A stretch of 64,000 bases of DNA from an uncultured Actinomycetota bacterium (GTDB taxonomy: Bacteria; Actinomycetota; Aquicultoria; JACQXZ01; CAYGBL01), in the NCBI GenBank assembly GCA_964348135.1, contig CAYGBL010000002.1, forward strand, positions 41,048-105,047. Reading direction: 5' to 3'. The position numbers and the translations under genes are program-made. The notes below the pieces were generated by a model. It ran no database searches. It had not been told where the DNA came from and saw nothing but the letters and a program-made list of their open reading frames with translations. Shown piece by piece: positions 5,834 to 26,060 of this stretch (positions are counted from its first letter, which is position 1; every line of letters starts with the position of its first letter).

Positions 5834-5851
5834 AGAAAATCAGTCCTTTCT

Positions 5852-8672: not shown

Positions 8673-10040
8673 ATGGATAAGACAACTCTTATACGAACCA
8701 AAAAGAATAAAGCTACTGAATCCCGTGAAAAAACCAAGCAATTGCTGATGCACTGGCTTGAACTAGGATCACTTAGCAATGAAAATAAAAAGCTTAAGGA
8801 ACTACTCTATGATGAGGTAACCCAACTCCCGACCCTTCCTTTATTTCTTACTGAAATCGAAAGAATGCTAAAGGAAAATAAACACGTTGGTCTTCTCTAT
8901 ATCGATATAGTTAAAGAGACGGATATCGAAAGGATTTACGGGTGGAAGGTTTTTGATCAGATCATGAAATATGTAGGTGAAATTCTGGAGCAGCTTAAAG
9001 GAAAATACTTTCGAAAAGAAGATCGAATTATACCATTACTAAAAAATGGCAATTCTTTTATACTTCTCCTTTCCCCTGCCAGAGAAAAAGAGACAATATT
9101 GATTGAAGACCTGGCCAAACTACGAAGGCGTATTGAAGTTGAATTGAGATCAGCTCTAAAAAAGGCCATGCCTTCAATTTATAATAGATTTAATTGTCAG
9201 ATTGGCTGCACTATTATTGAGAGCGAACCAAATATGAGAACTGAGAGAGTAATATTCAATGCATTGGAGAAAGCAGAAGAGAATGCCAGCTTAAGAGAGT
9301 TTGCCGAAAAGACTCGCCAGATTGAAGAACTAAGAACTATCATCCACCAGGAAAAAATAACTACACTTTTTCAACCCATCCTCGAAATTGAGTCCAAGCG
9401 CATAATTGGCTATGAGGTCTTTTGCCGGGGGCCCGAGGGGAGGTTAAAGGATCCGCAGACTCTATATAATCTCGCTATAGAGGGAGATTTAGTATGGCAG
9501 CTGGACCGTCTTTGTCGGAAAAAAGCCCTTCTTAATGCGAAGAATCTTAAAGCCAATCAGCTTTTGTTTATTAATATAAGTCCACGTGCTGTGGGTGACC
9601 CGGAATTGAGAAAAACAGCTGAATCTCTTCTACTTTTACCCCACAAACTTACTCCTGATCGTATTGTCTTTGAAATTTCCGAGAGGTCTATGGTTGTGGA
9701 TACGGATTTATTTCGTTTAGTACTTAACTACTTTAAAGCGCTTTCCTTTCTTATTTCTGTTGATGACGCAGGATCAGGTTACTATACTGGATTGGAGATC
9801 ATTGCCAAGCTCAAGCCCGATTTTGTAAAAATCGATATTCCCCTATTGCGAGATATTGACAAAGACCCTGTTCGGCAAGAGATAGTAAATACTATAATTA
9901 GATTCGCATCCAAAGTGGGTGCAAGAACTGTAGCTGAGGGCATTGAAACCGCTGAGGAACTTAAGCTTTTAAAAGAGTTAGGTGTAGATTATGTGCAGGG
10001 TTTCTTCTTTTCTCCCCTTCTTGACAGTATACCTTCCTAG
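8673..10040 (+). CDS. GGDEF(degenerate)-EAL protein with intact EAL phosphodiesterase residues
   Basis: The EAL-type motifs are EVF, DDAGSGY, KIDIPLL and AEGIET. The GGDEF region lacks the GG(D/E)EF motif. Confidence 0.75.
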   Translation: MDKTTLIRTKKNKATESREKTKQLLMHWLELGSLSNENKKLKELLYDEVTQLPTLPLFLTEIERMLKENKHVGLLYIDIVKETDIERIYGWKVFDQIMKYVGEILEQLKGKYFRKEDRIIPLLKNGNSFILLLSPAREKETILIEDLAKLRRRIEVELRSALKKAMPSIYNRFNCQIGCTIIESEPNMRTERVIFNALEKAEENASLREFAEKTRQIEELRTIIHQEKITTLFQPILEIESKRIIGYEVFCRGPEGRLKDPQTLYNLAIEGDLVWQLDRLCRKKALLNAKNLKANQLLFINISPRAVGDPELRKTAESLLLLPHKLTPDRIVFEISERSMVVDTDLFRLVLNYFKALSFLISVDDAGSGYYTGLEIIAKLKPDFVKIDIPLLRDIDKDPVRQEIVNTIIRFASKVGARTVAEGIETAEELKLLKELGVDYVQGFFFSPLLDSIPS

Positions 10041-10257: not shown

Positions 10258-10467
10258 CTACTTCATTTCAGGTGCTTTCTCTCCAATGCGGTGCCTATGT
10301 AGAAAGGCAACAAGATCACTCTCAAGTACCCTATACTCTTTTCCAAGATAAATAGCAGGCAGACGCCCAGCCTTAATGTACCGATAGATGGTCATCTTGT
10401 TTACTTTAAGCAGTTCTGCAATTTCCTTAATAGTATAAATCTTTTCCATTAAAACTGTTAGCCCCAA
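10258..10467 (-). CDS. Excisionase-family helix-turn-helix DNA-binding protein
   Basis: YTIKEIAELLKVNKMTIYRYIKAGRLPAIYLGKEYRV matches the MerR-like, excisionase-type HTH. Confidence 0.7.
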   Translation of the reverse strand: MGLTVLMEKIYTIKEIAELLKVNKMTIYRYIKAGRLPAIYLGKEYRVLESDLVAFLHRHRIGEKAPEMK

Positions 10468-10510
10468 ATCCGTTTAATGCTGAGAATTCTTTATCCATAC
10501 GTATTTATTG

Positions 10511-11314
10511 TTAATTCCTACAGCCTCTCTTGAACAACTGGAGCAACCTCTCCTTAAAGCGAGGTATTGCAGGCAATCGCTTTTTACTTAATCCAGTAAT
10601 GTAAGGAAAAACTCTATTGTTAGGTGCCAATTGAAGGACACCTCTCTTGAGCATGTATATGATTACGAAAGTAAGTAAGCCAGTAAACAGATATGAATCA
10701 AGGGTGGGAATCTTATAAGGAAATGGTGAATCCACTCGGGAGTTGTATGTACTGGTACCAAAGGTCACATAAATTGTGCACTCTGTACCGGACGCATCAT
10801 TATATCCGGTTATCTTCACGTATAACCTTGCTCCCACCGGAAGAGTGCGTGCACTTGCATCAGTATAATTTACTGTTAAAATAGTGGGATTATTTAAAGC
10901 AATGCTTGTCTGTTTTGGAGTTGTGAAATAGTCGCCGTTTGTAGTATCCCCAACTGTTATATCTATCCCTGGTGAAGGATTCTTCGCCGGTTTGGTATAG
11001 TGCACATAAAGATTGAAGGTCCACGCTGAACCTGCACTGTAACTGTTGCCCGAAGCCTCAGCTGTATCCCCATACCAGGTATCAATAACCGCTGATGTTC
11101 CACCTGATAAAGCCCCACTATTTCTACTGGATTGTACCTCCGAAAGTGTATAAGAAAGTTCATCATCATAAGGAGCAGATTTTCCAGAATCATAATCCAG
11201 ATAGGTAAGCTGACTGGAGAGCGCGGTATTAGGCAGGCTCAGAAAAAGAACAATGAGTAAAATAATAGCATATATCTCACTGATAATATTGCGGTTGTTA
11301 TTTTTGAAGTACAT
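10511..11314 (-). CDS. Secreted/membrane-anchored hypothetical protein; candidate exosortase-G cargo
   Basis: An N-terminal signal-like TM is followed by a Ser/Thr/Gly/Tyr-rich beta-type ectodomain. The C-terminus reads PYKIPTLDSY followed by a TM (LFTGLLTFVIIYML), KRG and a basic tail. The gene is divergent from xrtG. Confidence 0.5.
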   Translation of the reverse strand: MYFKNNNRNIISEIYAIILLIVLFLSLPNTALSSQLTYLDYDSGKSAPYDDELSYTLSEVQSSRNSGALSGGTSAVIDTWYGDTAEASGNSYSAGSAWTFNLYVHYTKPAKNPSPGIDITVGDTTNGDYFTTPKQTSIALNNPTILTVNYTDASARTLPVGARLYVKITGYNDASGTECTIYVTFGTSTYNSRVDSPFPYKIPTLDSYLFTGLLTFVIIYMLKRGVLQLAPNNRVFPYITGLSKKRLPAIPRFKERLLQLFKRGCRN

Positions 11315-11764
11315 CGTTTTCAGGTTTACTTTTATTTACTATTATATCGATTATATTATATTATTTATTATTATACAATAATGATATAATATAGTATATT
11401 TTAATATACATCAAAACTACCGGAAAACCTCCATAAATTTGAAATAAATTTTAATTTTTAGGATTGGCCATCATAAAATAAGTCTTTGTCAGCAAAAGGC
11501 AAGTGTAGGCACCTAATATATGCATTTTTAAATTTCCGGACTGATTAAAGGTAGGCTTTACTTAGCGATTTCCAACTATATATTGTGCTATTTTATATGT
11601 TTAGCACAACATTTTGATATAAATTGCAGGTCTGATCATATTGCTAGCGAAATATCTCTTGACAAATAGATGATGCAACACCCGCACTAATTGAAGTAGC
11701 TCCTAGACATAGAACTTTAAATGTCACCAGTTTTCGCCCATAGGCAAAAACTATCCAAAATAAC

Positions 11765-12352
11765 ATGAAGCTTTATCTGTTTATAGCTATAACTATTCTT
11801 TACTTTGTCGTTGTCTTTTACTTCCGAAAGCATAAGGCCTGGCTTTCCTATTATCTCCTGGGTTCCTTTGGTTTCACTTTGATAGCTGTCTTAGCTATAA
11901 GACAGTTCGGGCTGGAAACCTATTGGGAGAAGATGCATCTTATACAGACCCATTTTGTTTCTACCCTCTTAGGCATTAAGGCACAAGTCTCCGGTTTTGA
12001 CACCATTGTTGTACCTGACCCGATCGGCTTGGTCTCCCTTAAAATAGGTATTGAATGCTCCGGTATTCTTGAGAGTGTCATTCTGATCGGTCTTATCCTT
12101 TTCTACCCTACGTATAAATCTGGAAGAAAGGTCTCACTAATAATTTTTGGTCTTATTATTACACTGGTAACCAATATAGTTCGTATACTGATTATTATTT
12201 TTATGACTCATTTCTTAGGACGGAGTGCTGTATTTTTCGCACATGCTATAGTTGGCCGCCTATTCTTCTTTGCCTGCGTCATTGCACTCTTCTGGTACAT
12301 CATCACACGGCCAACTATAGAGGAGGTTGGCAGGAAGTTGAGTATAACTTAG
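11765..12352 (+). CDS. xrtG: Exosortase family protein, XrtG-type (Gram-positive exosortase)
   Basis: 195-aa polytopic protein. The conserved Cys is in IGIECSGILES, the Arg is in TNIVRIL, and HAIVGR is also present. It sits immediately upstream of a multi-TM GT2, the typical XrtG context. Confidence 0.75.
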   Translation: MKLYLFIAITILYFVVVFYFRKHKAWLSYYLLGSFGFTLIAVLAIRQFGLETYWEKMHLIQTHFVSTLLGIKAQVSGFDTIVVPDPIGLVSLKIGIECSGILESVILIGLILFYPTYKSGRKVSLIIFGLIITLVTNIVRILIIIFMTHFLGRSAVFFAHAIVGRLFFFACVIALFWYIITRPTIEEVGRKLSIT

Positions 12353-12384
12353 AGTAATTTTTCTCTATCTATTCAAAAGAGTCT

Positions 12385-14247
12385 ATGTATAATTTATGGC
12401 TTTTCCTATTAATCTGGGGAGTATGGATATTGATGCCAATCATTATTGATGGCATAGATACTCTTCTCAGACTTTTTGTAGTCCTAATTTGGGGTAGAAA
12501 CTTTGAAGAACACAAAGTGGATGATGAGAAGCTTCCCCATATTACTATCCTCATTCCAGCCTACAATGAAGAGAAGATCATCAGTCGGTGCATAAACTCA
12601 ATAAAGGTGCAGGATTACCCCCAGGAAAAAATGGAAGTCATCGTCATCGATGATGGTAGTCTTGACGCAACCTCACTGGAAGTTGCTGCGCACATAAGTG
12701 CAAATGGCAAGAATGGCAATAATATCGTAAATGGATATAAGAACCGCCAAACTAAAACTGAATTCAATGGTGCACATAAAAATGGAGAAAACCATACTAA
12801 CGGTAAAGATCGACCACCCGAAATGAGGATAAACGGCAACCGTATTCCACTTCCAGAAGAATTCAATGGCTCTATTAAACTACTTTCTTCTGACCATGCC
12901 GGGAAACCTAATGCTCTTAATGCCGGTCTTGAACATATGAATCACAGTGAACTAGTAATAACTATAGATAGTGACGTAGTGCTGGCTCCTCATGCTATCC
13001 GGAACGCTGCTTGTGCTTTTCTGAAAAATCCTGAAATGGGAGCTGCGACCGGCAATATTGAAATAAGCTGGGACATCCTTGAAGAACGTGATTCTAAGGG
13101 TAATCTCGTTCTTGACAAGGAAGGCTCTATTGTAACTAAAAAACTTAATTTCTCCCAGAATCTTCTTGCCAGATGTCAGTTTCTTGAGTATCTTGATGCC
13201 TTTCGGCTAGGGAGACAATTTCAGAGCATTATTCACTCTACCTATATCCTTGCCGGTGCTTTCTCTATCTTCCGCAGGGATGTATTAGCAAAATCACCTC
13301 TTTACCGAAGCCATACTGTATCAGAGGATTTCGATTTGACCGTTGATATCCATAAGAAACAGGTCCATGTGGGATACATTGCAGACGCTAAAGCCTACTT
13401 AGAGCCTATCATAGAATGGGATACTCTTTATGCTCAGAGAGTTAGATGGTGCCGTGGTCAACTTGAAGTCTGCGGCCTACACCGGGAAATCATTGGAAAT
13501 AAATCTTTCGGACCAATTGGATGGTTTGGTTTTCCTCAAATGCTAATCCTTGACCATACCCTTTCCTTTCCACGTCTTATTTGGACTTTCCTTATCCTCT
13601 TCTTCCCTCTCTTTGGCTATTCTCCTAAAATCATTGCCACAGCCGTATTTTTTATGTATCTATTCTATGTGGGTCTTGCTTTCTTACAGACTGTGAGTGC
13701 TTACTTTATCGTAGATGAAGATACTAAGAAACAGATAGAAAAGACCCTTGCTTTTTGTTTGGTTCTCCCTATTTACCGCCTGATGACTTTCTACTTTCGT
13801 ATGTCAGGTTATCTCTTAACCCTAAAAGAACCGCCAAGATGGAAAGTAGAAAGTCCATTAGATGCTTTAAGAAAAAGAGTAGACAATATAAGGAACGGAA
13901 ATGGAGTAATAGCTAATGGCAGGGGAAATACGACCACTTTTTTTAAGCGTCTATCGCGGATTAGAGAAAGACTATATGGGAACATACTTACATTGAGAGA
14001 TAGAAGGTGCTTCGTAAAAACGGAAAGAAATAGTAAACCAAGACTATCGCCATCCCTTGGTACTGGTTTAGATAGACTCTTTAAAAAGTGCCGCGCACTC
14101 CAGGAAGACGGAAAATACAAAAAAGCTACTTTTCTTCTTAAAAATGCTTTAAAAGCTACAGAAAACTCAAAAGACCTGCTCCTTCTCTACATTGAGCTAG
14201 GAAGGTTATCATATATAGCTAAATGGGATAAGTCTAGCTCACCATAA
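12385..14247 (+). CDS. Family 2 glycosyltransferase, exosortase-G-associated type (N- and C-terminal TM helices, Asn/Gly-rich insertion, basic C-terminal tail)
   Basis: The GT2 signatures are ILIPAYNEE, VIVIDDGS, DSD and QRVRWCRGQ (a QxxRW-like motif). TM clusters flank the catalytic domain. Confidence 0.8.
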   Translation: MYNLWLFLLIWGVWILMPIIIDGIDTLLRLFVVLIWGRNFEEHKVDDEKLPHITILIPAYNEEKIISRCINSIKVQDYPQEKMEVIVIDDGSLDATSLEVAAHISANGKNGNNIVNGYKNRQTKTEFNGAHKNGENHTNGKDRPPEMRINGNRIPLPEEFNGSIKLLSSDHAGKPNALNAGLEHMNHSELVITIDSDVVLAPHAIRNAACAFLKNPEMGAATGNIEISWDILEERDSKGNLVLDKEGSIVTKKLNFSQNLLARCQFLEYLDAFRLGRQFQSIIHSTYILAGAFSIFRRDVLAKSPLYRSHTVSEDFDLTVDIHKKQVHVGYIADAKAYLEPIIEWDTLYAQRVRWCRGQLEVCGLHREIIGNKSFGPIGWFGFPQMLILDHTLSFPRLIWTFLILFFPLFGYSPKIIATAVFFMYLFYVGLAFLQTVSAYFIVDEDTKKQIEKTLAFCLVLPIYRLMTFYFRMSGYLLTLKEPPRWKVESPLDALRKRVDNIRNGNGVIANGRGNTTTFFKRLSRIRERLYGNILTLRDRRCFVKTERNSKPRLSPSLGTGLDRLFKKCRALQEDGKYKKATFLLKNALKATENSKDLLLLYIELGRLSYIAKWDKSSSP

Positions 14248-14461
14248 ATAATTTTTTCTTCTATTGAAGCTGAAAGAAGGCAAATTTTAACGATCAAACT
14301 TGATATCTCTCATGTGCAATACCAACAAACTGCTAAAATGGATAAAATTTTTGTTGCTCATGCAAAAAAGTGAAGGAAAATTTAAAAGGTGGTTGAATGT
14401 TATTATTATTAGTTTTATTATGAGCTATTAAACCTTAAGTATATGAGGAAGGAGCAATAGA

Positions 14462-15259
14462 ATGAAAAAGAGCAAAGAACTCTCCGGCTTACCTATCATA
14501 GCCCTCCATGAAGGCAAAGAGATAGGTAAAATAAGAGAACTAATAATTGATCCACAAAAAAGACAAGTTGTTGGATTCCTCATCGAAGACAGCGAGTGGT
14601 TTAGAAATCCCAAAACTTTACTTTATTCTTCTATCAAAGCATTGGGAGATGACGCAGTGATAGTAGAAACTGGAAATGCTGTTTCCAGCCTTTCTCAAAC
14701 AAATGAGCTTGAATCCCTCCTGGACCAAAAAGTAAATATTATCGATACTAGATGTATAAGTTCTGAGGGTCGTTATATGGGACGAATAACAGAGTTCCTG
14801 GTTGATACAAAAACCGGAAGAATATCAACCTTTGAGATAACCAGCCCCTCCAGCAGTCAGAAGCCGATTATGATGCCAGTAGAAGGAATATTGACTGTGG
14901 CCTCTGATTTTATAATCACTGAAGAACCAGAAAAAGCCAGCCGGCTTCACGCACAGACCATTAAGCCGTTAGATACTACTTTGAGCCGTCGCGAAATATC
15001 AGCTACACCTCCTGCTGCATCACAGGAAATGCGTAAGAAAGGTTCTGAGCCTAAACCCGATACTGAAAGTAGTGTAAGAAAAATTTTAGAAGAGCGCCAG
15101 GACGCCTATCTCGTGGGAAAAGAGGTACGTAAAGATGTAGCAGCTGACGATGGCACATTAATTATTAAGGCTGGTGATATCATAAACCCAGAAATCATTG
15201 AGAAAGCGAAACAAGCTGATAAATATCTCGCTCTTTCCTTTAGCATCAGGAGAACTTAG
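14462..15259 (+). CDS. PRC-barrel domain protein (two PRC-barrel repeats)
   Basis: SGLPIIALHEGKEIGKIRELIIDPQKRQVVGFLIE is repeated later as GRYMGRITEFLVDTKTGRISTFEI. The gene has a strong SD site (GAGGAAGGAG) and a sigma-A-like promoter (TTGAAT-17-TATTAT) upstream. Confidence 0.7.
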   Translation: MKKSKELSGLPIIALHEGKEIGKIRELIIDPQKRQVVGFLIEDSEWFRNPKTLLYSSIKALGDDAVIVETGNAVSSLSQTNELESLLDQKVNIIDTRCISSEGRYMGRITEFLVDTKTGRISTFEITSPSSSQKPIMMPVEGILTVASDFIITEEPEKASRLHAQTIKPLDTTLSRREISATPPAASQEMRKKGSEPKPDTESSVRKILEERQDAYLVGKEVRKDVAADDGTLIIKAGDIINPEIIEKAKQADKYLALSFSIRRT

Positions 15260-15656
15260 AATTCAACCCTAAATTTACTGCTTTATAATCACAACTTGCT
15301 GCGAACCTGATGAGCCTTTTGCCAAAAATAGGAGAGACTGTATTTCAATTAATACTGCAACCACGAACGTAAACCATCAAGGTCAGACAAAGGCTTTAAC
15401 CCTAAGCCGAGTTGAATCCGCGTATCCTGTATTCCTATTTATTCTTAGTTCACTTACAATCTATTTACGTTGGAGACAGCAAGTTATTTCCGGTCCTGGT
15501 TGGGATCCTTTTGCTTTTCTAGCTAATGCCCTTAAATTTGCTGGAAAAGGTATTGGTTACAGTGAACTTCACCGGCCACCTATAATTTCTCTTTTAACTT
15601 CGCTTATATTTCGCACCGGATTTATCTCCGAATCCGCTCTTTTTCTGGTAGATGGA

Positions 15657-17615
15657 ATGCTCCTCCTTCTGGGAATAATGGGCTTTTACTATCTGCTAAA
15701 GCTCCGGTTTCCCAGCTGGTTAAGTTTAATAGGTGCTCTTCTTTTTCTTTCTTTCCCAATTGTTTTAAATATGGCAACCACTGGTTATACTGATCTTCCC
15801 AGTACGGCAATATCTATATGGGTTGTATATTTTCTAGTTCTTGCTCTAGAAAAAGATAGACGCTTTCATTGGTTTGCCTGGCCATTACTCATTCTTGCTG
15901 CGCTCACCCGTTTTACCGGGTTTCTTCTTCTAATTCCTATCCTCCCTCTTATGATAGGTAGAGCAAGCATAGTGAGAAATCTTAAAGATATCGCTCTCGG
16001 TTCCATTTTCTCCTTGATTATTCTCGTGCCTCTTATGATATTTTATGGCAGAGAGTTTACTGATCCCATATTTCCCTTTGCGCATGCCTTCTTTGCAGTT
16101 AGTGAGCCTGCACCTTATCTCGAAAGTTTCGCCCTCAAGCCTGATCTCTTCTGGTTCTTTAGGAACCTGAAAGACTTTACCCTACAACCGCCATTGACTG
16201 TGCTCTTTCCATTGCTTGCCTTTCTTGTAGGGCTGGGATTATCCCTATACATTTTTAATCTTATAAAAACCACAAAAATAGATATTTTACGTTATTCTTT
16301 CATAATTGCTGCTTTACTTTTCTACATCTTTGTATTTTTTAAATTCGGTTTTATTATCCGACAAACGGTACTAGTAATAATAGGCATACTTTTATATCTT
16401 CACTTCCAAAAGGCAAATACTAGAGAGATAGGTCTGGATATCATATTTCTTTTATGGTTTTTGACTTATTTTGACTTTCACAGCCACGATCCAATCAAAG
16501 TTGAACGCTACTTTGTAGTTATGGCACCGGGAGTTGTCTATGCCATTCTATTGAGCCTCAACAGCCTACTCAATTTCATTAGGATAAAGGTATTCAAAAT
16601 TTCTTTCTCCATACTTATGTCTCTGGTTCTATTACTGGCTATCTCATTTTCTTTGACAAGTGTATTTAATAGTAAAGGGGGGAAGGACATACTGGTTGAT
16701 GATGCTATTAAAACCAGTAAATGGCTCAAGAAAAATGATAGACAGCTATCCAAAGCCAAGATTTATTCTGATCTCTGGCCCATTTTCAGCTGGTATTTGA
16801 AGCAGAGGGTTGACCCTATGCCTTCCTTTAAAGACAAACGTGCATTCAATCACGAGTTGGAAAAATACGATATAGATTACTATCTCACGATTAGGGATCG
16901 GCAGTTACCCTCCTATGAAACTAAAGCTCAAATCGGTACTGTCACAGTATTAAAAAAGAATGCCAGCAAGGTTAGTAGAAAGACCCGTATTCTTTACCTG
17001 GGTATGAACTGGGAACATTACTTGGAGGAAATACTGGACTTTAAATACTTCATGTTCTATGAGCCAGGCAAATATTATCTAGGAAAATCACTATATATAG
17101 ATGGATATACTCTAGAAGAATTAAGAAAATATCCTCTTATTATTCTCTATAACTTCAGATGGCATAATCGAAAAAAAGCAGAATTCTTGCTTAAAAGTTA
17201 TGTTAAGTCAGGAGGCAGTATAATTATCGAAGCTTCTGGAAACAACGGGAGTATGCCTTATAACCTTGAAGGGGATACTTTCCTAGGTGTATCCGTCTTC
17301 CGCGAAGCTCTTCCTGCTAAACCTGTTATAAAATTTAACCCCAAGCTATCTGTCTCAGAACTGAATTTTTCACCCTTCTTATCCAACAGTCAACCCTGGT
17401 ATGGAATGACATACGAAAATCTGGATAAAGAGACGCCCTTTACTGTACTGGCAACTGCTGACGAACATACCCTAATAGCTGAGCAAAGAATAGACCGGGG
17501 AAGAATAATCTGGATAGGATTTAATTTGGTATGGCATTCTTTTAACAAGAAAAACAAAGAAGAACAAGAGCTGCTTCAGAGACTATTAACTTATGCACTC
17601 CAAAGAGATTATTAA
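15657..17615 (+). CDS. GT-C family membrane glycosyltransferase-like protein (ArnT/PMT-like), N-terminus probably extends upstream of first ATG
   Basis: Many TM helices are followed by a roughly 300-aa C-terminal soluble domain. The reading frame is open and TM-rich from 15273 onward, with no ATG, GTG or TTG. Confidence 0.6.
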   Translation: MLLLLGIMGFYYLLKLRFPSWLSLIGALLFLSFPIVLNMATTGYTDLPSTAISIWVVYFLVLALEKDRRFHWFAWPLLILAALTRFTGFLLLIPILPLMIGRASIVRNLKDIALGSIFSLIILVPLMIFYGREFTDPIFPFAHAFFAVSEPAPYLESFALKPDLFWFFRNLKDFTLQPPLTVLFPLLAFLVGLGLSLYIFNLIKTTKIDILRYSFIIAALLFYIFVFFKFGFIIRQTVLVIIGILLYLHFQKANTREIGLDIIFLLWFLTYFDFHSHDPIKVERYFVVMAPGVVYAILLSLNSLLNFIRIKVFKISFSILMSLVLLLAISFSLTSVFNSKGGKDILVDDAIKTSKWLKKNDRQLSKAKIYSDLWPIFSWYLKQRVDPMPSFKDKRAFNHELEKYDIDYYLTIRDRQLPSYETKAQIGTVTVLKKNASKVSRKTRILYLGMNWEHYLEEILDFKYFMFYEPGKYYLGKSLYIDGYTLEELRKYPLIILYNFRWHNRKKAEFLLKSYVKSGGSIIIEASGNNGSMPYNLEGDTFLGVSVFREALPAKPVIKFNPKLSVSELNFSPFLSNSQPWYGMTYENLDKETPFTVLATADEHTLIAEQRIDRGRIIWIGFNLVWHSFNKKNKEEQELLQRLLTYALQRDY

Positions 17616-18625
17616 TGTCCAGCTTTCAAACCTCGCTGCTCGTTTATTGGAGTCAATGAAAAGATTAGCCTTGAAGACATGCACATTCTTACTATCTCCC
17701 AATATGCGCTCCCTTGCTCTTTTAAGGAACACCTCATTGTATTACTGAAAGGGCTCAATGTTCTCCATATGATAAGCTTGGCTGCAAGCCCCACAATAGT
17801 AACTAACCTTAGGAGTTGAAATGTCCAAAAGCCGTAGTGCTTCCTGAAGAATCTCAGCATACTTCTTCTGCATTCTACTACACTCCACTTAACGTCACCA
17901 TTATCCATTTGACATACGCTTCGCGCGGCATAATGAAAAATCTCAGCTTTCGATAAATAATGAATACGCCATCCAGCTAGTTTTATGCGATAACACCAAT
18001 CGAGGTCCTGAGAGTAGAGGGGAAATCCCTCATCAAGTAGACCAACTTCCTCTACCGCTTCTCTTCTCACCATCATACAGGCAGCATCTAGAAGATCAAC
18101 ATCTTGGGAATCATCATGATTCCACCAGCTCATCAAATATTTTCCGAAAACCCTATTTTTGGGAAAAAGTGTATCAAGAGAAGTACCCTTTACTATTTCA
18201 CTAAAGAGTGTGGGGAAGGTGCGTGCACAGGTAAGCTGAATGCTGCCACCAGGATTCACAATTTTGCCACCGACTGCGCCCACTTCGCTCTGGTCATTTA
18301 GGTATTCTAGCATTAGATCCAGGGCACTAGGCATAACTATAACATCAGATCCGAGAAGCATAATATATTTTCCTGTACTTTCACTCAGCGCTTGATTCAA
18401 TGCAGCAGAGAGATATCGGTTTTCATTGTTTACGATCAGTCTCACTTGAGGAAAGTATTCCTGAACCATAGCTTCACTACCATCACAGGAGGCATTGTCT
18501 ACCACAACAACTTCAACTCTTGCTTTGGTGTTTCGGTAGATACTTCGTAATACGTTCCCTAGATAGTCTCTGGTATTCCAACTCACTAAGCAGATTGATA
18601 CATCCGTCATCTTCAGTAACGTCAT
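17612..18625 (-). CDS. Family 2 glycosyltransferase
   Basis: The motifs are VSICLVSWNT and VVVVDNASCDGS. Confidence 0.8.
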   Translation of the reverse strand: MTLLKMTDVSICLVSWNTRDYLGNVLRSIYRNTKARVEVVVVDNASCDGSEAMVQEYFPQVRLIVNNENRYLSAALNQALSESTGKYIMLLGSDVIVMPSALDLMLEYLNDQSEVGAVGGKIVNPGGSIQLTCARTFPTLFSEIVKGTSLDTLFPKNRVFGKYLMSWWNHDDSQDVDLLDAACMMVRREAVEEVGLLDEGFPLYSQDLDWCYRIKLAGWRIHYLSKAEIFHYAARSVCQMDNGDVKWSVVECRRSMLRFFRKHYGFWTFQLLRLVTIVGLAAKLIIWRTLSPFSNTMRCSLKEQGSAYWEIVRMCMSSRLIFSLTPINEQRGLKAGH

Positions 18626-18631
18626 CTATTC

Positions 18632-19807
18632 TTATTTCCTAAGTGCTTCTGAATATATTTCAACCATACGCCGGGCGTTACTCTCCATATCACACTCCTT
18701 GGGAAGCTTACAATTCTCAGCCACATTTTTATACAAATGGTCATCGGTAATTAATGAAGTAATTTTTTTTGCCAAATCATCTACATTTCGAGGTTCGACT
18801 AAGAAGCCGTTTCTACTATCCTTAATAACCTCTGGAGTACCACCAACACACGTTGCTACTACAGGTACACCGGAAGCTAGTGCTTCCATAATTAGCATTG
18901 GAAGACCTTCATCAAAACTGGGAAGAACAACTACATCTGCAGAATTAATCCAAAGAGGAACTTCTGCGTGCGGCCTTTCTCCCACAAATCGTACCTGCGC
19001 AGAAATCCCTAGTTTCAAAACCGTATCTTTGAGTTGTTCTTCTAAAGAACCTGTCCCTACAAGGATAAACAGAGTATCATGCTTTGCTTTAATTATCTGG
19101 ACTGCTGAATGCATTAAATACGCTAAACCCTTAACACGTATCAATCCGCCTGCAAATAGAACTATTTTTGATGTTTTAGGCAATCCCAATTTCTGCCGCA
19201 CAGCTTTCTTCTCCCTCTGTTTGAATAAGTGCTTATTTACACCCATATTAATTACTGTCATTTTTTCTTCGCCAATACCATATTCTCTTCTTATCTTTTC
19301 TTTCAAAACTTCGCTTACTGCAACTATATAGTCTGCTTTTCTTAAAACAAATTTTGCTGCCAGTCTGGCTAATTTACTCTTCTGTGGAAAAACCGTTATA
19401 TCGGCTCGATGAGCAGTTATTACAACTGGTTTCCTGCTCAGATATTTACCGACCACCACTCCTATCAGTCCAGTTGGTATTACCCAATGAGCATGTATCA
19501 ACTCAACGCGTTCACTACGAACTACTCGCCAAGTCTTAATTATTCCGGATATCAGATAGCTTGCTACTCGCACAATAGGAATCCTTTCATACTCTGCCAG
19601 AAATTTTTCTTCTGATAGAAAGGAGAAACGATAGACTCTTATAGAGTCTTGAGAAAGCAAAACCTCATCGGCAATGAAAATTCGAGGAACAACAATGACA
19701 ATATCGCAATTCATCTTTTTTATTTGAATTGCTTGATCTCTTATAAAGCTTCCACTATCAGCCTTTCTACTTGTGGGATAGGCGGCAGTGAGAAGGCAGA
19801 TTTTCAT
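18632..19807 (-). CDS. Family 4 (GT-B) glycosyltransferase
   Basis: The C-terminal EGLPMLIMEALASGVPVVAT matches the GT4 E-x7-E region. Confidence 0.8.
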   Translation of the reverse strand: MKICLLTAAYPTSRKADSGSFIRDQAIQIKKMNCDIVIVVPRIFIADEVLLSQDSIRVYRFSFLSEEKFLAEYERIPIVRVASYLISGIIKTWRVVRSERVELIHAHWVIPTGLIGVVVGKYLSRKPVVITAHRADITVFPQKSKLARLAAKFVLRKADYIVAVSEVLKEKIRREYGIGEEKMTVINMGVNKHLFKQREKKAVRQKLGLPKTSKIVLFAGGLIRVKGLAYLMHSAVQIIKAKHDTLFILVGTGSLEEQLKDTVLKLGISAQVRFVGERPHAEVPLWINSADVVVLPSFDEGLPMLIMEALASGVPVVATCVGGTPEVIKDSRNGFLVEPRNVDDLAKKITSLITDDHLYKNVAENCKLPKECDMESNARRMVEIYSEALRK

Positions 19808-20640
19808 TTCTCCTTCTCCTCTTCTGCTCCAACCAACATAAAAAAATAGCTATTACCAATCCAAGGAATGACCCTTTCATAATCATATCTCGAAAATAAA
19901 TACTGAATACATTTGGGAACAAGGGGACCAAGAGGAGGGATATAGAGGGAGGGAAGAACGTGACGCATAATTCCTTTTGAAACCACTCTCATATCACTCC
20001 CCTCCGCTATATTCTCAATCCATTTTGGACTAAATCTAGTAGTTTCGACTGGGCTAATATATTTGTCGGAGATCTTGATTTTTAGCTTTCTGGACAGAAA
20101 CCTCCCTATTCTTGCCTCGTAGCCGCGTAGACTCTTTACAACTGGTATATCACCTAAAAATATTCTCACTGCTGGTTTTCCCACTCTCTTTAACTCATCC
20201 ATAAATCTCGGTATCTCCTCTAGGCTCAAATAGTGAATCATCCCGTTGCATATAATTACATCAAAGGTTCGGTCCTTAAAAGGAAGAGTACAGCTGTCAG
20301 CCTGGGCAAAAAACAGGTTTTGGTATCTCTGAGAAGAGGAAATTCTTAAAAGCATTCCCAGAGAAAGATCGATACCTACGGCAGCCTTTACTAGTGGCGC
20401 AAAGGCCTTAAGAAACAGACCATTCCCACACCCAATATCCAGGAAACAGTCCGTCTTCCTCAAACTGAGACAATATTGAATTTTCTCAATATCTTTTTCA
20501 AGGAATTCTCTATTCCAAGTGTCAGGAGAGCCTCTCAGTATGTATTCATCTTCGATTGTCCTGGCACGTTTGTCAAACCAGGAAGCGACATTCTTCGACC
20601 TTCTTCCACCAGAATAACTGTAGTATCGCTGCTCTTTCAT
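19804..20640 (-). CDS. Class I SAM-dependent methyltransferase
   Basis: LDIGCGNG is motif I, followed by an acidic residue at the end of beta-2. Confidence 0.75.
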   Translation of the reverse strand: MKEQRYYSYSGGRRSKNVASWFDKRARTIEDEYILRGSPDTWNREFLEKDIEKIQYCLSLRKTDCFLDIGCGNGLFLKAFAPLVKAAVGIDLSLGMLLRISSSQRYQNLFFAQADSCTLPFKDRTFDVIICNGMIHYLSLEEIPRFMDELKRVGKPAVRIFLGDIPVVKSLRGYEARIGRFLSRKLKIKISDKYISPVETTRFSPKWIENIAEGSDMRVVSKGIMRHVLPSLYIPPLGPLVPKCIQYLFSRYDYERVIPWIGNSYFFMLVGAEEEKEK

Positions 20641-22427
20641 CTCGTCCTGGTTAACAACCTAACCTCAGTTCTTTCGCCTGCTCTAATTGTAGGCAGAGGT
20701 ACTAAGACATGCTCGTTTCGATCTATCAAATCTTCCTTGTTCCCGTCAATAGAAACCCCTTTAACAGGCAACTTCAATGGAATTGCTATGGACGAATTTG
20801 AAACCGTTTGTTCGCCCCGATTTTCCACTTCAAATAAAAGATTTTCAGCACCAACTTGATTGTCACTTTTAATTCTCAAATTTTCCCTCTTGCGCCACCA
20901 ATCTACCAGCTCACTAAGCTTGGCAATCCACACATCTTTACCTTTAACCAAGGTATAGAGATACCGCAGCAAATCCATACGCATCTCTGAATCTCTATCA
21001 CCATACACACCAGCGTGAGCCAAAAAGACATAAAGCCCACCAATGCTCTCAATCCAACCAAGCTTTCTCTTAAACACTTTTTTGCAGTCTTCCACATTCA
21101 AACCACTAAAGTAAGGCTCCATATCCTGGGGGCCAGTCAAAGGAAGCTCTAAAACTTCATACTCCTTAATTTCACTCCCGCCGCTAAATAGTCTAAAAGG
21201 AAAATTAAAAGATATACCTTTACCATTAAAAGTCCGCTTTAAGGAAGTATCAGTATCGACAAAAGAGGAATCAAAAGAGACATCCTGCTTCTCCAGCAGT
21301 TCGCCCAGGTCGGATGTTCTTTGCAGCCAGGGAGCTCGAAATCCTCGGATGCTTTTTCCTGTTACCTTCTCCAGTTTTAAAAACGAATCTCTAATTTCCA
21401 ATTCCCTTCTACTGCTACTTATGTTATGGAAGGTCCCATTATGGTAGAGACCATGAGAAATAACCTCATGTCCTTCCTCTTCTAATTTTTTTACGCTATC
21501 TTCAGGCAGGCAAAAGGGTGGTTCACTAACCAGAGAAATTGTCGATCTTATTGTAAGTTCCTTTAGTGTTTTAAGTAGTTTAGGTAATCCTTTATAATAG
21601 GCATATCTTCTCGGTTCTACATCATGAGTAAAACAAAAGGCATAAGCAAAGGCGCAAGGCCACTTCCATATTCTGGGAACAAAGTGGGACGACCAATCTA
21701 AGGCATTAATAAAGGTTTGGTATAGAACCCACCCCGAAGGGTCGATAGGTGCTTGTGTGGTAAAGTGATCCACTTTGCTCTGTCTCCTCCGAGCCTGTTT
21801 TAAAAGAATACGATATGTAGCTAGACGCAAATTATAGGGAGCTATTTGATAAGCAAAATTACTAATCAATGAAAGTGGCTTCTGCTTCTTATTGTTATCA
21901 GCATAACTTTCAGCAAGCAGGCTGGAAAAACTTCTACCAATATCAAAAGTAAATAAAAAATGACCATCTACTGAAACTATCGCAGGATATGACTTTCTAC
22001 TGACTTCCATCTCTGCCAGGACTTCCACACCAGAACGAATCTCACACTCTATCAATCCATCAACTGGAATAAAAACCTCTGATAAATCGAAGGAATTAAG
22101 AAGAAAAGTTACCTTTTTAAACACCGGCCCTTTTTTAAATCTTAAAATACCTTTTTTAGTTCTCACTGTACTTCTACAAGAAATCCCAAAAATATTCTCT
22201 ACCAGCTCTTTACTCTGTTTCCCATCTTCCAAAGTCGAAAGTACAAAAAATATTTTAGTATCTATGGCTGGTTTAAATTCTTGTCTCAGTTCTTTTACGT
22301 CTAGCAAAGTAACTCCAGGGTATTCTGGACAATTTGCACTGCTAAAAGATATACCCTCGGTTCTTAGCACAACTGATAATCCATAAAGTGACTGACTAGA
22401 AGCAATAATTAGAGACTGCATACTCAT
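20637..22427 (-). CDS. Polysaccharide deacetylase (CE4/NodB-fold) with extra N-terminal domain
   Basis: The C-terminal half has the CE4-like motifs FTHDVEP, ISHGLYH and FRAPW. It resembles the polysaccharide-locus deacetylases found in exosortase EPS loci. Confidence 0.6.
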   Translation of the reverse strand: MSMQSLIIASSQSLYGLSVVLRTEGISFSSANCPEYPGVTLLDVKELRQEFKPAIDTKIFFVLSTLEDGKQSKELVENIFGISCRSTVRTKKGILRFKKGPVFKKVTFLLNSFDLSEVFIPVDGLIECEIRSGVEVLAEMEVSRKSYPAIVSVDGHFLFTFDIGRSFSSLLAESYADNNKKQKPLSLISNFAYQIAPYNLRLATYRILLKQARRRQSKVDHFTTQAPIDPSGWVLYQTFINALDWSSHFVPRIWKWPCAFAYAFCFTHDVEPRRYAYYKGLPKLLKTLKELTIRSTISLVSEPPFCLPEDSVKKLEEEGHEVISHGLYHNGTFHNISSSRRELEIRDSFLKLEKVTGKSIRGFRAPWLQRTSDLGELLEKQDVSFDSSFVDTDTSLKRTFNGKGISFNFPFRLFSGGSEIKEYEVLELPLTGPQDMEPYFSGLNVEDCKKVFKRKLGWIESIGGLYVFLAHAGVYGDRDSEMRMDLLRYLYTLVKGKDVWIAKLSELVDWWRKRENLRIKSDNQVGAENLLFEVENRGEQTVSNSSIAIPLKLPVKGVSIDGNKEDLIDRNEHVLVPLPTIRAGERTEVRLLTRTR

Positions 22428-22440
22428 GTCACTTCCTCAA

Positions 22441-24520: not shown

Positions 24521-24824
24521 CCGAATGCTGAATTCCTTCTTCTTCTATCTTTTAATCCGCCTGAAGACTCAACTTCTCACTATTTAGCGATATGGGAGCT
24601 AAGAGATTTATTTCAGTCTCCAACTTTTGGCACCAATATAGCTGTTAGCTGTTTATAATTATCGAAGGTAGGACCTTTTTATATGGCAGAGAACAAAGTA
24701 ATGGCCTATGTTCTTTGAAAATAATTCAGCTAATAATTTCTTTTATAAAATTTATTTTCTATTCAAAGGTCTAAAGATGCTAAGGAAGAATACTTATTTA
24801 TTAGCCTTCATGAGAGAACTTAAT

Positions 24825-25943: not shown

Positions 25944-26060
25944 TGCGGGCACTTTCTAAGCTAAGTACCATGAAAATTTTGAACAGAGCTTGTATAATTC
26001 ACTACTTGATCACTCCCAAGTTTTTTTGAAAAAAAAATAGATAAAAGAGAATAGAATAAA

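What the first reader, a model, noticed from the sequence alone, without database searches (positions are those of the whole stretch)
10258..15259. Exosortase-G (XrtG) locus with paired multi-TM GT2, a divergently encoded secreted protein and an excisionase-type HTH
The 195-aa protein at 11765-12352 has the exosortase-family Cys, Arg and His containing TM core. Immediately downstream is a 620-aa GT2 with TM segments on both sides of the catalytic domain. This XrtG plus dedicated-glycosyltransferase arrangement is known from Gram-positive bacteria, and its substrate and sorting signal are essentially undefined. Here the pair is flanked upstream by a divergently transcribed secreted protein with a C-terminal TM anchor, and downstream by a PRC-barrel protein. 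An excisionase-family HTH gene is adjacent. If cargo and regulator are encoded in cis, this compact locus would be a good place to work out what XrtG does.
Basis: partly seen in the sequence, partly recalled or inferred. Interest (0 to 1): 0.7.

Follow-up and report, generated by a model that had tools for sequence, protein, structure and literature searches.

The report
Distant XrtG-type protein-sorting locus with cargo
An uncultured actinobacterium carries a distant relative of the Gram-positive XrtG exosortase system, in which a membrane protease-like enzyme, two sugar-transferring enzymes and a neighbouring secreted protein with a matching tail signal probably work together to fix that protein to the cell surface.

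Summary
The 195-aa protein is a real exosortase-family member. It passes the TIGR04178 signature and has the Cys98/Arg140/His160 triad. XrtG is its best specific model, but it scores below the curated cut-off (91.6 vs 102.75 bits). The partner GT2 is also sub-threshold (271 vs 364). The host is a deep-branching uncultured Actinomycetota, not a Firmicute. The claim that the XrtG signal is undefined is outdated, because a Firmicu-CTERM cargo model exists. That model does not hit this locus.

In 36 of 37 related loci, a secreted protein next to or fused with the XrtG-like gene ends in [IV]-P-x-L-[G/S/D], a TM helix, and [KR][KR]G. The window's 267-aa protein carries this signal (IPTLD…KRGVLQL). 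It is the only window ORF that does, and it is homologous to the xrtG-adjacent protein of another MAG (E = 8e-9). So cis-encoded cargo is supported. The gene is, however, uniquely inverted, has Asp where Gly is usual, and has a 40-aa tail beyond the KRGVL basic cluster.

The HTH and PRC genes are lineage-specific. This is a new variant of a known kind, of moderate interest.

The parts
11765..12352 (+). XrtG-like exosortase-family intramembrane enzyme, 195 aa, about 5 TM helices. Catalytic-triad codons: Cys98 12056-12058, Arg140 12182-12184, His160 12242-12244.
   Evidence: TIGR03110 91.6 bits, below the 102.75 cut-off; TIGR04178 54.9, pass; PF09721 pass. (residue conservation). (AF2 pLDDT 84.9, all-helical apart from one beta-hairpin at 80-93).
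10511..11314 (-). Candidate cargo, 267 aa. It has a Sec-type signal peptide (about aa 1-33), a Ser/Thr-rich (26%) beta-rich ectodomain, and a tripartite sorting signal followed by a basic cytoplasmic tail.
   Evidence: anatomy. (only 1 of 201 window ORFs has motif + TM + basic tail). (homology to L012's xrtG-adjacent protein, E=8e-9). (signal recurs in 36/37 loci). (orphan at whole-protein level).
10697..10717 (-). Signature motif Y200-K-I-P-T-L-D206 of the cargo's sorting signal. The consensus elsewhere is [FY]-S-[VI]-P-[TAV]-L-G.
   Evidence: Asp206 replaces a Gly found in 16/16 reference tails. A close relative, L045, has Ser at this position.
10514..10696 (-). TM helix of the signal (aa 207-222), basic cluster K223-R-G-V-L-Q-L229, and a further basic tail through aa 267 (aa 228-267 = 40 aa with 10 K/R and 1 D/E).
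   Evidence: The post-helix [KR][KR]G[VT]L[RQ][LVM] is shared with L004, L044, L046, L047 and L012. Long tails also occur in L010 and L047.
12385..14247 (+). Partner GT2, 620 aa, processive-synthase type with TM segments flanking the catalytic domain. It carries an N/G/K-rich insert at about aa 105-165 and a cytoplasmic tail of about 125 aa.
   Evidence: TIGR03111 271 bits, below the 364 cut-off; next best PgaC/IcaA 105 bits. (DDGS, GKPNALN, DSD, SED, QRVRW). (directly downstream of xrtG in almost all related loci). (closest solved: 6yv7, BcsA).
15342..17615 (+). GT-C-type membrane glycosyltransferase (PMT_2 N-terminal domain plus PTPS_related C-terminal domain), about 757 aa, at least 10 TM helices. 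Probable ATT start preceded by an AGGAGA Shine-Dalgarno. The first canonical start is at 15657.
   Evidence: PMT_2 coverage improves from profile positions 33-159 to 2-159 with the extension. (conserved coding sequence upstream of 15657 with no ATG/GTG/TTG). (present in most related loci).
14462..15259 (+). Protein with two PRC-barrel domains, 265 aa. A lineage-specific accessory located between the GT2 and the GT-C.
   Evidence: PF05239, 57.4 bits, two stretches. (recurs only in the nearest relatives L004, L005, L010).
10258..10467 (-). Small HTH_17 / excisionase-family DNA-binding protein (69 aa from TTG; an ATG at codon 8 would give 62 aa). It lies 43 nt downstream of the cargo gene on the same strand.
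   Evidence: It recurs only in L013, as a tandem HTH abutting xrtG. No integrase was found among the scanned neighbours.
11315..11764 (.). 450-nt AT-rich divergent intergenic region between the cargo gene and xrtG. It presumably holds both promoters.
   Evidence: sequence. (promoter-like sites not clearly enriched). (no Rfam family). (not conserved with relatives). (no remnant of a co-directional cargo gene).
8673..10040 (+). Degenerate-GGDEF plus EAL protein, 455 aa. A c-di-GMP-linked gene that recurs upstream of the system in the nearest relatives.
   Evidence: EAL 165.9 bits; GGDEF 27 bits. (EAL genes upstream in L004, L010, L014, L044, L046).
17612..30787 (.). Adjacent glycan synthesis and modification genes: GT2, GT4, SAM-methyltransferase, polysaccharide deacetylase, FemAB/GNAT-like acyltransferase, GT2, UDP-GlcNAc 2-epimerase, two B12-radical-SAM enzymes, NAD-epimerase, GT2. 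Context only, not the core system.
   Evidence: The first four are syntenic in L004, and similar enzymes sit beside the cores of L006 and L009.

Best explanation
The locus is a four-part, dedicated protein-sorting and glycan system of the XrtG type, in a divergent non-Firmicute form.

Shown:
- An exosortase-family enzyme with the Cys/Arg/His triad.
- Immediately downstream, a processive-synthase-type GT2.
- Further downstream, a GT-C glycosyltransferase.
- Next to the enzyme gene, a Sec-secreted protein whose tail has the tripartite signal (IPTLD motif, TM helix, KRGVLQL basic patch). In related loci this signal is almost always encoded directly upstream of, or fused to, the XrtG-like gene.

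Inferred mechanism:
1. The cargo is exported by Sec and held in the membrane by its C-terminal helix. This places the motif at the outer membrane face, where Cys98 sits at the start of a TM helix.
2. The enzyme cleaves at or near the motif through a thioester intermediate, as proposed for archaeosortase ArtA.
3. The new C-terminus is passed to a nucleophile on an envelope acceptor. The most plausible acceptor is the glycan or glycolipid made by the partner GT2 and GT-C, possibly after deacetylation or aminoacylation by the neighbouring deacetylase or FemAB-like enzymes.

The GGDEF-EAL neighbour suggests c-di-GMP-linked control. The HTH and PRC genes are lineage-specific additions.
For: - Family assignment.
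- TIGR03110 score continuum from this clade (73-92 bits) through intermediates (100-117) to classical XrtG (130-203), with XrtG always the best specific model.
- Conserved gene order cargo-XrtG-GT2-(PRC)-GT-C. It matches the described L. plantarum system of CTERM protein, XrtG and two GTs (PMC12854382).
- Signal-bearing neighbour in 36/37 evaluable loci: 28 on the same strand with gaps of -10 to +115 nt, 7 in-frame fusions, and the window's divergent gene.
- At least 11 further fusion representatives.
- The signal sits on at least three unrelated ectodomain families (hhalign), as expected for a sorting tag.
- The window's tail is the only such tail among 201 ORFs and matches the extended consensus including KRGVLQL.
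- Homology to L012's cargo, E=8e-9.
- GT2 motifs D, DxD, SED and QRVRW.
- GT-C domains.
- Mechanistic precedent: ArtA Cys thioester with a lipid amine acceptor (PMC7157517); Cys/Arg/His triad and tripartite signals (bioRxiv 10.1101/2023.06.07.544157).
Against: - No experiment exists on any XrtG system. Cleavage, the acceptor and even catalysis are all inferred.
- The window's cargo gene is the only one of 37 on the opposite strand and 450 nt away.
- Its motif ends in Asp where 16/16 reference tails have Gly.
- A basic tail continues well past the signal helix.
- The ectodomain is an orphan in 5.8 billion proteins and could not be modelled (pLDDT 47).
- Both enzymes fall below the curated family cut-offs, and the Firmicu-CTERM model does not match.
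- About 14% of family representatives lack the Cys.
Confidence: 0.6

Rival explanations
1. The 267-aa protein is an ex-cargo or an ordinary bitopic membrane protein. It descends from the cargo class but is no longer processed. Inversion of the gene, the Gly-to-Asp change and the long basic tail mark a decoupling, so it stays anchored by its own TM helix, and the XrtG-like enzyme here has no cis substrate.
For: It is the only divergent arrangement among 37 loci. It has Asp at a position that is Gly in 16/16 reference tails. Its basic tail is 40 aa beyond KRGVL, against 5-16 aa in most loci. It is an orphan ectodomain.
Against: L045, whose XrtG is 64% identical, has Ser at the same motif position. 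L010 and L047 have tails of 60-78 aa after the signal. An ArtA substrate with a non-C-terminal tripartite signal is on record (reference cited in PMC7157517). The extended consensus, including KRGVLQL, is intact, and no other candidate cargo lies in the window.
Confidence: 0.2
2. The XrtG-like protein is not a protein-sorting peptidase here. It is instead a structural or accessory membrane subunit of the GT2/GT-C polysaccharide machinery, and the upstream or fused extracellular domains are simply its partners or N-terminal domains, never cleaved.
For: The GT2 is invariably adjacent. In-frame fusions in which the 'signal' helix is the enzyme's own TM1 are equally compatible with an uncleaved multidomain protein. 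The nucleophile Cys is Ser in 17 and another residue in 5 of 154 representatives.
Against: Cys, Arg, His and Asn137 are conserved at 86-100% in an otherwise divergent family, which points to catalysis. The short motif is conserved across unrelated ectodomains exactly at the outer-face boundary. Separate cargo genes carry their own TM helix and basic patch, the classical signal design.
Confidence: 0.12
3. The IPTL[G/D] + TM + basic tails are variant signals for a classical sortase (LPXTG-like) rather than for the XrtG-like enzyme.
For: The organism has LPXTG-type substrates (an LPFTG protein at 38669-40189). L009's tail scores marginally on the LPXTG anchor model (16.4 bits vs 15.9).
Against: The motif lacks the near-invariant Thr at position 4 of sortase signals (own knowledge). 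The tails are adjacent to or fused with XrtG-like genes in 36/37 loci, including methanogen MAGs. No sortase gene was seen among the window ORFs scanned.
Confidence: 0.03
4. One reading: the excisionase-type HTH is the dedicated cis regulator of the system.
For: It lies 43 nt downstream of the cargo gene on the same strand. L013, a Saccharibacteria MAG, has a tandem HTH_17 protein abutting xrtG. No integrase is nearby, so a role as a small transcription factor is more likely than excision.
Against: It is absent from 35 of 37 related loci, including all the nearest relatives. The recurring regulatory neighbours are EAL / GGDEF-EAL proteins in the nearest relatives and LytTR response regulators in L006 and L009.
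Confidence: 0.15

Closest known systems
XrtG system of Firmicutes (TIGR03110 XrtG, TIGR03111 glycosyltransferase, TIGR04145 Firmicu-CTERM cargo, second associated GT; e.g. L. plantarum LP_RS09075-09090, PMC12854382)
   Same: It has the same enzyme fold family, with XrtG as the best specific model, and the same small size of about 190-200 aa. The gene logic is the same: one adjacent cargo, then the sortase-like enzyme, then a GT2 and a second GT. Cargo-enzyme fusions occur in both groups.
   Different: Scores fall below the curated cut-offs for both enzyme and GT2. The host is Actinomycetota, and the clade extends to Chloroflexota, Saccharibacteria and methanogens. The cargo does not match the 191-position Firmicu-CTERM model and its ectodomain is unrelated. 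The signal motif is [IV]PxLG rather than the ..V/S-x-G.. junctions seen in classical fusions. In the window the cargo gene is inverted.
Archaeosortase A / PGF-CTERM (Haloferax volcanii ArtA)
   Same: It belongs to the same superfamily (TIGR04178 signature) and has a Cys/Arg/His triad at the outer membrane face. The substrate signal is tripartite. There is precedent for a substrate whose signal is not at the extreme C-terminus.
   Different: ArtA serves many substrates spread over the genome and attaches a lipid. Here a single adjacent cargo is paired with two glycosyltransferases, which points to a glycan-linked acceptor. ArtA is larger and only distantly related in sequence.
Exosortase A / PEP-CTERM EPS loci
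   Same: It is an exosortase-family enzyme embedded in a polysaccharide-biosynthesis locus, with likely glycosylated cargo.
   Different: XrtA scores only 31.7 bits here (cut-off 208). PEP-CTERM is a many-to-one system of diderm bacteria. This one is a one-to-one system in a monoderm-type lineage with a different motif.
Sortase / LPXTG
   Same: The tripartite signal design and the proposed Cys thioester transpeptidation are analogous, and the motif is superficially similar (xPxxG).
   Different: The enzyme fold is unrelated, and the signal lacks the conserved Thr. The cargo is genetically tied to the XrtG-like gene rather than to a sortase.

Membership tests
XrtG (NCBIfam TIGR03110, exosortase family protein XrtG) | Whole-protein score at or above the curated cut-off of 102.75 bits | tested here: not met
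   91.6 bits, E=5.7e-26, full-length alignment 7-187 to profile 4-183 of 187. It is the best specific model. Clade members score 73-92, intermediates 100-117, classical members 130-203.
XrtG (NCBIfam TIGR03110) | Adjacent TIGR03111-family glycosyltransferase | tested here: inconclusive
   The GT2 lies 33 nt downstream and its best hit is TIGR03111, but at 271.1 bits against a cut-off of 363.95. The adjacency is conserved in almost all related loci.
XrtG (NCBIfam TIGR03110) | Cognate cargo carrying the Firmicu-CTERM domain (TIGR04145) | tested here: not met
   No hit at E<=10 for the 267-aa protein, its tail, or the cargo of L004, L006 and L009. The model does hit classical fusions at 81-98 bits. 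hhalign finds no relation.
XrtG (NCBIfam TIGR03110) | Restriction to Firmicutes / Gram-positive bacteria (as I recall the family description) | tested here: not met
   DnaK's best named relatives are Actinomycetota MAGs, Ca. Subteraquimicrobiales, Solincola and Geothermincolia at 72-77% identity. This is a monoderm-type lineage but not a Firmicute. The clade also occurs in Chloroflexota, Saccharibacteria and methanogen MAGs.
Exosortase/archaeosortase superfamily (TIGR04178, PF09721) | Signature region scoring above cut-off | tested here: met
   TIGR04178 54.9 bits (cut-off 23); PF09721 39.1 bits (cut-off 25.7).
Exosortase/archaeosortase superfamily (TIGR04178, PF09721) | Conserved Cys, Arg and His at the ends of TM helices | tested here: met
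   Cys98 (ECSG), Arg140 (NxxRI) and His160 (HAxVGR) are present. They are conserved in 132, 153 and 147 of about 154 representatives. Spatial proximity could not be measured, because no coordinates are returned.
Exosortase/archaeosortase superfamily (TIGR04178, PF09721) | Peptidase or transpeptidase activity on the cognate signal | not testable with these tools
   This needs expression and mass spectrometry. No XrtG experiment was found in the literature.
Tripartite C-terminal protein-sorting signal | Short signature motif, then a TM helix, then a basic cluster | tested here: met
   YKIPTLD (200-206), SYLFTGLLTFVIIYML (207-222), KRG (223-225). The same design is found in 36/37 related loci.
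Tripartite C-terminal protein-sorting signal | Location at or very near the C-terminus | tested here: inconclusive
   About 42-45 residues follow the helix, depending on where its end is drawn (one search counts 45 after the uncharged stretch). Most relatives have 5-16, while L010 has 78 and L047 about 60.
Tripartite C-terminal protein-sorting signal | Co-occurrence or adjacency with the sorting enzyme across genomes | tested here: met
   The signal-bearing gene is adjacent or fused in 36/37 loci. Genome-wide co-occurrence could not be tested, because only loci were held, not genomes.
Processive membrane-embedded GT2 synthases (BcsA/PgaC/NodC/chitin-synthase type) | D, DxD, [ST]ED and Q(R/Q)xRW motifs, with TM helices flanking the catalytic domain | tested here: met
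   DDGS89, DSD195, SED313, QRVRW351; TM at 6-24 and about 393-434. Secondary hits are PgaC/IcaA 105 bits, NodC and CelA. BcsA is among the PDB hits.
GT-C glycosyltransferases (PMT_2 / PTPS_related) | Pfam PMT_2 and PF10131 above gathering score, in a polytopic membrane protein | tested here: met
   PMT_2 44.5 bits (cut-off 26.1), covering profile positions 2-159 of 160 with the ATT-start extension. PF10131 46.2 bits (cut-off 26.4). At least 10 hydrophobic segments.
Excisionase (recombination directionality factor) | HTH_17 / TIGR01764 domain | tested here: met
   TIGR01764 53.9 bits (cut-off 28.8); PF12728 58 bits.
Excisionase (recombination directionality factor) | Association with an integrase and attachment sites | tested here: not met
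   No integrase or recombinase domain was found among the scanned neighbours across 1-30 kb. No convincing flanking inverted or direct repeats were found. The domain alone does not make it an excisionase.

The most novel reading that the evidence does not exclude
The window belongs to an unnamed exosortase subclass, sister to or on the fringe of XrtG, that spans Actinomycetota, Chloroflexota, Saccharibacteria and methanogenic archaea. This subclass has its own cognate signal, which could be called 'PTLG-CTERM': [FY]S[VI]P[TA]LG + TM + [KR][KR]G.

In many members the cargo is translated as one polypeptide with the enzyme, so the signal helix is the enzyme's own TM1. That would imply cis, single-turnover self-processing by a sortase-like enzyme. 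The released ectodomain would then be transferred onto the polysaccharide or glycolipid built by the dedicated GT2/GT-C pair.
Probability: 0.25. Interest if true: 0.75.

Novelty: new variant of a known kind. Interest (0 to 1): 0.5.

Why it matters
Exosortases and archaeosortases are widespread, yet it is still unproven whether they are one-step transpeptidases, and the acceptor is unknown for every bacterial member. XrtG systems are the most compact form, with one enzyme, one adjacent cargo and two glycosyltransferases, but they have never been studied experimentally.

This work extends that system well outside the Firmicutes. It gives a concrete, testable signal, [IV]PxLG-TM-[KR][KR]G, found on unrelated ectodomains. 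It also identifies natural cargo-enzyme fusions that could serve as self-contained reporters of cleavage.

For this window specifically, the value is moderate. The organism is uncultured, and its cargo gene is the atypical one (inverted, Asp for Gly, long tail). A relative such as L004, L044 or L046, or a natural fusion, would be a better experimental entry point than this locus.

Tried and rejected
1. Active invertible element around the cargo+HTH block: only weak 14-16-nt inverted repeats and no recombinase. Rejected; treated as a fixed rearrangement.
2. Riboswitch or other known RNA in the 450-nt intergenic region and other gaps: no Rfam match at E<=1. The region is not conserved with L004 or L010.
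3. Remnant of an ancestral co-directional cargo gene in 11315-11764: none by translation or tblastn.
4. Homologues of the 267-aa protein by database search: only itself.
5. Firmicu-CTERM or any other named sorting-signal model on the tails: none, apart from a marginal LPXTG-anchor hit on L009.
6. Relatedness of cargo ectodomain families by hhalign: none beyond the 7-residue motif.
8. Structure of the cargo: pLDDT 46.7, unusable, so no fold search was run.
9. XrtG-GT2 fusions as the explanation for C-terminally extended representatives: rejected, no GT2 similarity and no Pfam domain.
10. Organism name through exact cluster look-up: no names returned. DnaK homologues were used instead.
11. PilZ or another c-di-GMP-binding domain in the GT2 tail: Pfam reports none. 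Not pursued further.

Full report
**Observation**

The same arrangement, with identical proteins, occurs on contigs of two other assemblies (GCA_012975005.1 and GCA_012974985.1). The divergent orientation is therefore real.

The window is a metagenomic contig of about 40% GC. Its DnaK is 72-77% identical to DnaK of uncultured Actinomycetota, including Ca. Subteraquimicrobiales, Ca. Solincola, Ca. Geothermincolia and Anoxymicrobiaceae.

The 195-aa protein's best specific model is TIGR03110 (XrtG), at 91.6 bits and E=5.7e-26 over its full length. The curated cut-off is 102.75. It passes the general exosortase/archaeosortase signature TIGR04178 (54.9 vs 23) and PF09721.

The GT2's best model is the XrtG-associated TIGR03111, at 271 bits against a cut-off of 364. 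The next best is PgaC/IcaA at 105 bits.

Scanning a gradient of related proteins shows a continuum. This clade scores 73-92 bits, intermediates 100-117, and classical XrtG 130-203. XrtG is always the best specific hit. The honest label is 'XrtG in the broad sense, outside the curated boundary'.

Cys98 (ECSG), Arg140 and His160 are present. Across about 154 representative clusters these positions are Cys in 132 (Ser in 17), Arg in 153 and His in 147. Asn137 is invariant.

**What is already known**

NCBIfam contains TIGR04145 (Firmicu-CTERM sorting-domain protein, 191 positions) and NF045489 (XrtG N-terminal extension domain-like protein). Both hit classical XrtG fusion proteins.

A 2026 paper lists a 'complete XrtG system' in L. 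plantarum as a Firmicu-CTERM protein, XrtG and two associated glycosyltransferases (PMC12854382). That transcriptomic mention is the only paper in the library that names XrtG or Firmicu-CTERM. Experimentally the system is still a blank.

**Comparative genomics**

- The word-index search found only 15 clusters. A profile search of 1.84 billion representatives found 316 related clusters, 66 of them at E<1e-30.
- Loci were collected through exact look-ups and a genome scan. The hosts are Actinomycetota, Chloroflexota (Dehalococcoidia, Anaerolineae, Ktedonobacterales), Saccharibacteria, an Eubacteriales MAG, and Methanobacteriaceae, Methanomicrobiales and Methanofastidiosia MAGs.
- A GT2 homologous to the window's lies directly downstream of the XrtG-like gene in essentially every locus.
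- A PMT_2/PTPS_related GT-C protein is present in most loci.
- The PRC protein occurs only in the nearest relatives (L004, L005, L010).
- EAL or GGDEF-EAL genes lie upstream in the window, L004, L010, L014, L044 and L046.
- An HTH_17 protein recurs only in L013 (for the partner tally; for L044-L047).

**The cargo**

In 24 of 33 initially evaluable loci, a secreted protein is encoded on the same strand and ends between 10 nt inside and 115 nt before the XrtG-like gene. In 7 loci it is fused in frame. One locus (L013) has none. The window is the only one with the gene on the opposite strand, 450 nt away.

Four further close relatives add four more same-strand cases. The total is 36 of 37.

All these proteins end in a tripartite signal:

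| Locus | Tail |
|---|---|
| L004 | YSIPVLGW-PLLFLASLFFPFLLV-RRGVLRM |
| L044 | YSIPILGW…KKGVLRV |
| L046 | SSIPTLGY…KKGTLQL |
| L014 | YNIPTLG…RRRVLYI |
| L009 | YSVPTLGF…RKRNG |
| Dehalococcoidia loci | QWSPASVLG…SRRRK |
| Methanobacteriaceae fusions | FYSVPSPW…KKRWW |

The window's protein ends in PYKIPTLDS-YLFTGLLTFVIIYML-KRGVLQL, followed by a basic tail (aa 228-267: 40 aa, 10 K/R, 1 D/E). It is the only one of 201 window ORFs of at least 50 aa with such a tail.

The ectodomains belong to at least three unrelated families: a large Ig-like-repeat type; the type shared by the window, L012 and L010; and the classical Firmicu-CTERM domain. hhalign finds only the 7-residue motif in common. That is how a sorting tag behaves.

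At whole-protein level the 267-aa product is an orphan. It does align with the xrtG-adjacent 314-aa protein of an Actinobacteria MAG (L012) over 114 residues that include the signal (27% identity, E=8e-9).

The protein does score with exosortase models, and orthologous loci do carry a resembling neighbour.

**Caveats for the window's cargo**

- The gene is inverted.
- The last motif residue is Asp, where 16/16 reference tails have Gly.
- The signal is not at the extreme C-terminus.

Mitigating points: L045, whose XrtG is 64% identical, has Ser at that position. L010 and L047 have tails of 60-78 aa. An ArtA substrate with an internal tripartite signal is cited in PMC7157517. I put the probability that the protein is a true substrate at about 0.6.

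**Fusions**

Of 164 representatives, 25 have N-terminal extensions of at least 60 aa. At least 11 of these end in [FY][FYT]S[VI]P[TVA][LI]G, either directly before the enzyme's TM1 or about 20 residues before it. An example is P0038: …FYSVPVLG-ALIVLFIALLVAPLAWLL-RRRRRWLMYYVL…. Here the helix and basic patch are the counterparts of the window enzyme's N-terminal LYLFIAITILYFVVVFYF-RKHKAWLSYYLL.

This fixes the topology by inference. TM1 runs from outside to inside, the basic patch is cytoplasmic, and the motif and Cys98 both lie at the outer face. It also raises the possibility of cis self-processing.

Classical XrtG shows fusions too, and NCBIfam has a model named for them. The fusion phenomenon as such is therefore not new. 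Some representatives instead carry C-terminal extensions with LPAVLG or KVLG motifs and a terminal TM + basic tail.

**The other parts**

- **GT2.** It has the DDGS, DSD, SED and QRVRW motifs and flanking TM segments of processive synthases such as BcsA, PgaC and NodC.
- **GT-C gene.** It is longer than annotated. The frame is open for 128 codons upstream of the first canonical start, with no ATG, GTG or TTG. That stretch is nevertheless 52% identical to the N-terminus of L006's orthologue. It completes the PMT_2 domain, with profile coverage rising from 33-159 to 2-159 and the score from 35.6 to 44.5 bits. An AGGAGA lies 6 nt before an ATT at 15342, giving 757 aa against 754 in L006.
- **Downstream region (17.6-30.8 kb).** It encodes further GT2 and GT4 enzymes, a methyltransferase, a polysaccharide deacetylase, a FemAB/GNAT-like acyltransferase, UDP-GlcNAc 2-epimerase, an NAD-epimerase and two B12-radical-SAM enzymes. 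The first four are syntenic in L004.

**Mechanism (inferred)**

1. Sec exports the cargo, which is retained by its C-terminal helix.
2. The XrtG-like enzyme attacks at the IPTL(D/G) motif through Cys98, forming a thioester, as proposed for ArtA (PMC7157517).
3. A nucleophile on an envelope acceptor resolves the intermediate.

The invariant pairing with a processive GT2 and a GT-C makes a glycan or glycolipid the most plausible acceptor or co-substrate. The neighbouring deacetylase or FemAB-like enzyme could supply a free amine. This last point is speculation.

Whether any exosortase is a one-step transpeptidase remains unproven (bioRxiv 10.1101/2023.06.07.544157). The recurrent EAL neighbours suggest c-di-GMP-linked control. 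The HTH is probably a lineage-specific small regulator, co-oriented with the cargo gene, and there is no sign of an integrase or an invertible element.

**Verdict**

It is right about the kind of system and about cis cargo. It is wrong or outdated on strict family membership, on the state of knowledge, and on the importance of the HTH and PRC genes, and it misses the GT-C gene.

This is a new variant of a known kind: a non-Firmicute, sub-threshold XrtG-type system with a distinct [IV]PxLG signal. Interest is moderate (0.5). The clade-level findings (the signal, its breadth including archaeal MAGs, and the fusions) are more interesting than this particular locus, whose cargo gene is the atypical one.

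Noticed in passing
window 15270-15657: The GT-C gene has 128 conserved in-frame codons upstream of its first canonical start, with no ATG, GTG or TTG among them. An AGGAGA at 15330-15335 followed 6 nt later by ATT at 15342 suggests a non-canonical ATT start. Public gene calls (614 aa) and the mechanical ORF (652 aa) both truncate TM1 and the conserved GPGWDPFAFLANAL loop.
   Followed up: yes
window 38669-40189 (-): A 506-aa DUF11-repeat surface protein ends in LPFTG + TM + basic tail, a classical sortase substrate. The organism therefore probably runs a sortase system alongside the XrtG-like one. No sortase gene was seen among the window ORFs scanned.
   Followed up: partly
P0008-P0011, P0013; census: The presumed nucleophile Cys is replaced by Ser in 17 of 154 family representatives (ESSA/ESSG), and by Asn, Thr, Gln, Pro or Tyr in five others (e.g. 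P0078 IENSG, P0091 IETSG). The neighbouring Ser99 is nearly invariant. L046, a Ser variant, still has a normal SSIPTLG cargo upstream.
   Followed up: partly
P0019, P0037, P0032, P0022: Some XrtG-like proteins carry C-terminal extensions: an extra TM and an extracytoplasmic region with no Pfam domain. P0019 has three repeats, each ending in LPAVLG. Others have KVLG about 40 aa before a terminal TM + Lys/Arg tail. Cargo-like modules can apparently be fused after the enzyme as well as before it.
   Followed up: no
L013:7485-7979 (+): In a Saccharibacteria MAG, the slot directly upstream of xrtG that normally holds the cargo gene is occupied by a 164-aa protein made of two HTH_17 domains. This is the only other locus with an HTH_17 neighbour. 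The contig ends just after xrtG.
   Followed up: no
L023, L025, L031, L036, L039 (Methanobacteriaceae and Methanomicrobiales MAGs): Archaeal MAGs encode in-frame cargo-XrtG-like fusions with a variant junction, FYSVPSPW, directly before TM1. They are followed by the GT2 and, a few kb away on the opposite strand, the GT-C. If the binning is correct, an XrtG-type system exists in methanogens.
   Followed up: partly
window 22441-23499 (-), 26061-27446 (+), 29333-30787 (+): A FemAB/GNAT-like acyltransferase and two B12-binding radical-SAM enzymes sit in the adjacent glycan locus. L009 also has a B12-radical-SAM gene next to its XrtG core. FemAB-type enzymes build the amine nucleophile used by classical sortases, which is suggestive here but untested.
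   Followed up: no
window 12385-14247, aa ~105-165 and ~495-620 of the GT2: The GT2 catalytic domain is interrupted by a low-complexity insert of about 60 aa, rich in Asn, Gly and Lys. The protein also has a cytoplasmic tail of about 125 aa with no recognised domain. No PilZ was found, despite the c-di-GMP genes nearby.
   Followed up: no
L027:797-4270 and downstream: In an Eubacteriales MAG the cargo-XrtG fusion is 1157 aa. The GT2 and GT-C similarities map to one and the same downstream ORF, which suggests a GT2-GT-C fusion.
   Followed up: no
L004:8700-8973 and L010:373-566: The leader regions upstream of the cargo genes of two different relatives from the same sample are highly similar to each other, but not to the window's intergenic region. 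This may be a conserved promoter or leader in that sublineage.
   Followed up: no
window 4100-5461 (+), 5447-8518 (-), 8673-10040 (+): The upstream side is dense in signalling genes: a weak-EAL protein, a response regulator, a GAF-GAF-PAS histidine kinase, and a degenerate-GGDEF/EAL protein. In L006 and L009 the equivalent position holds a histidine kinase and a LytTR response regulator.
   Followed up: partly
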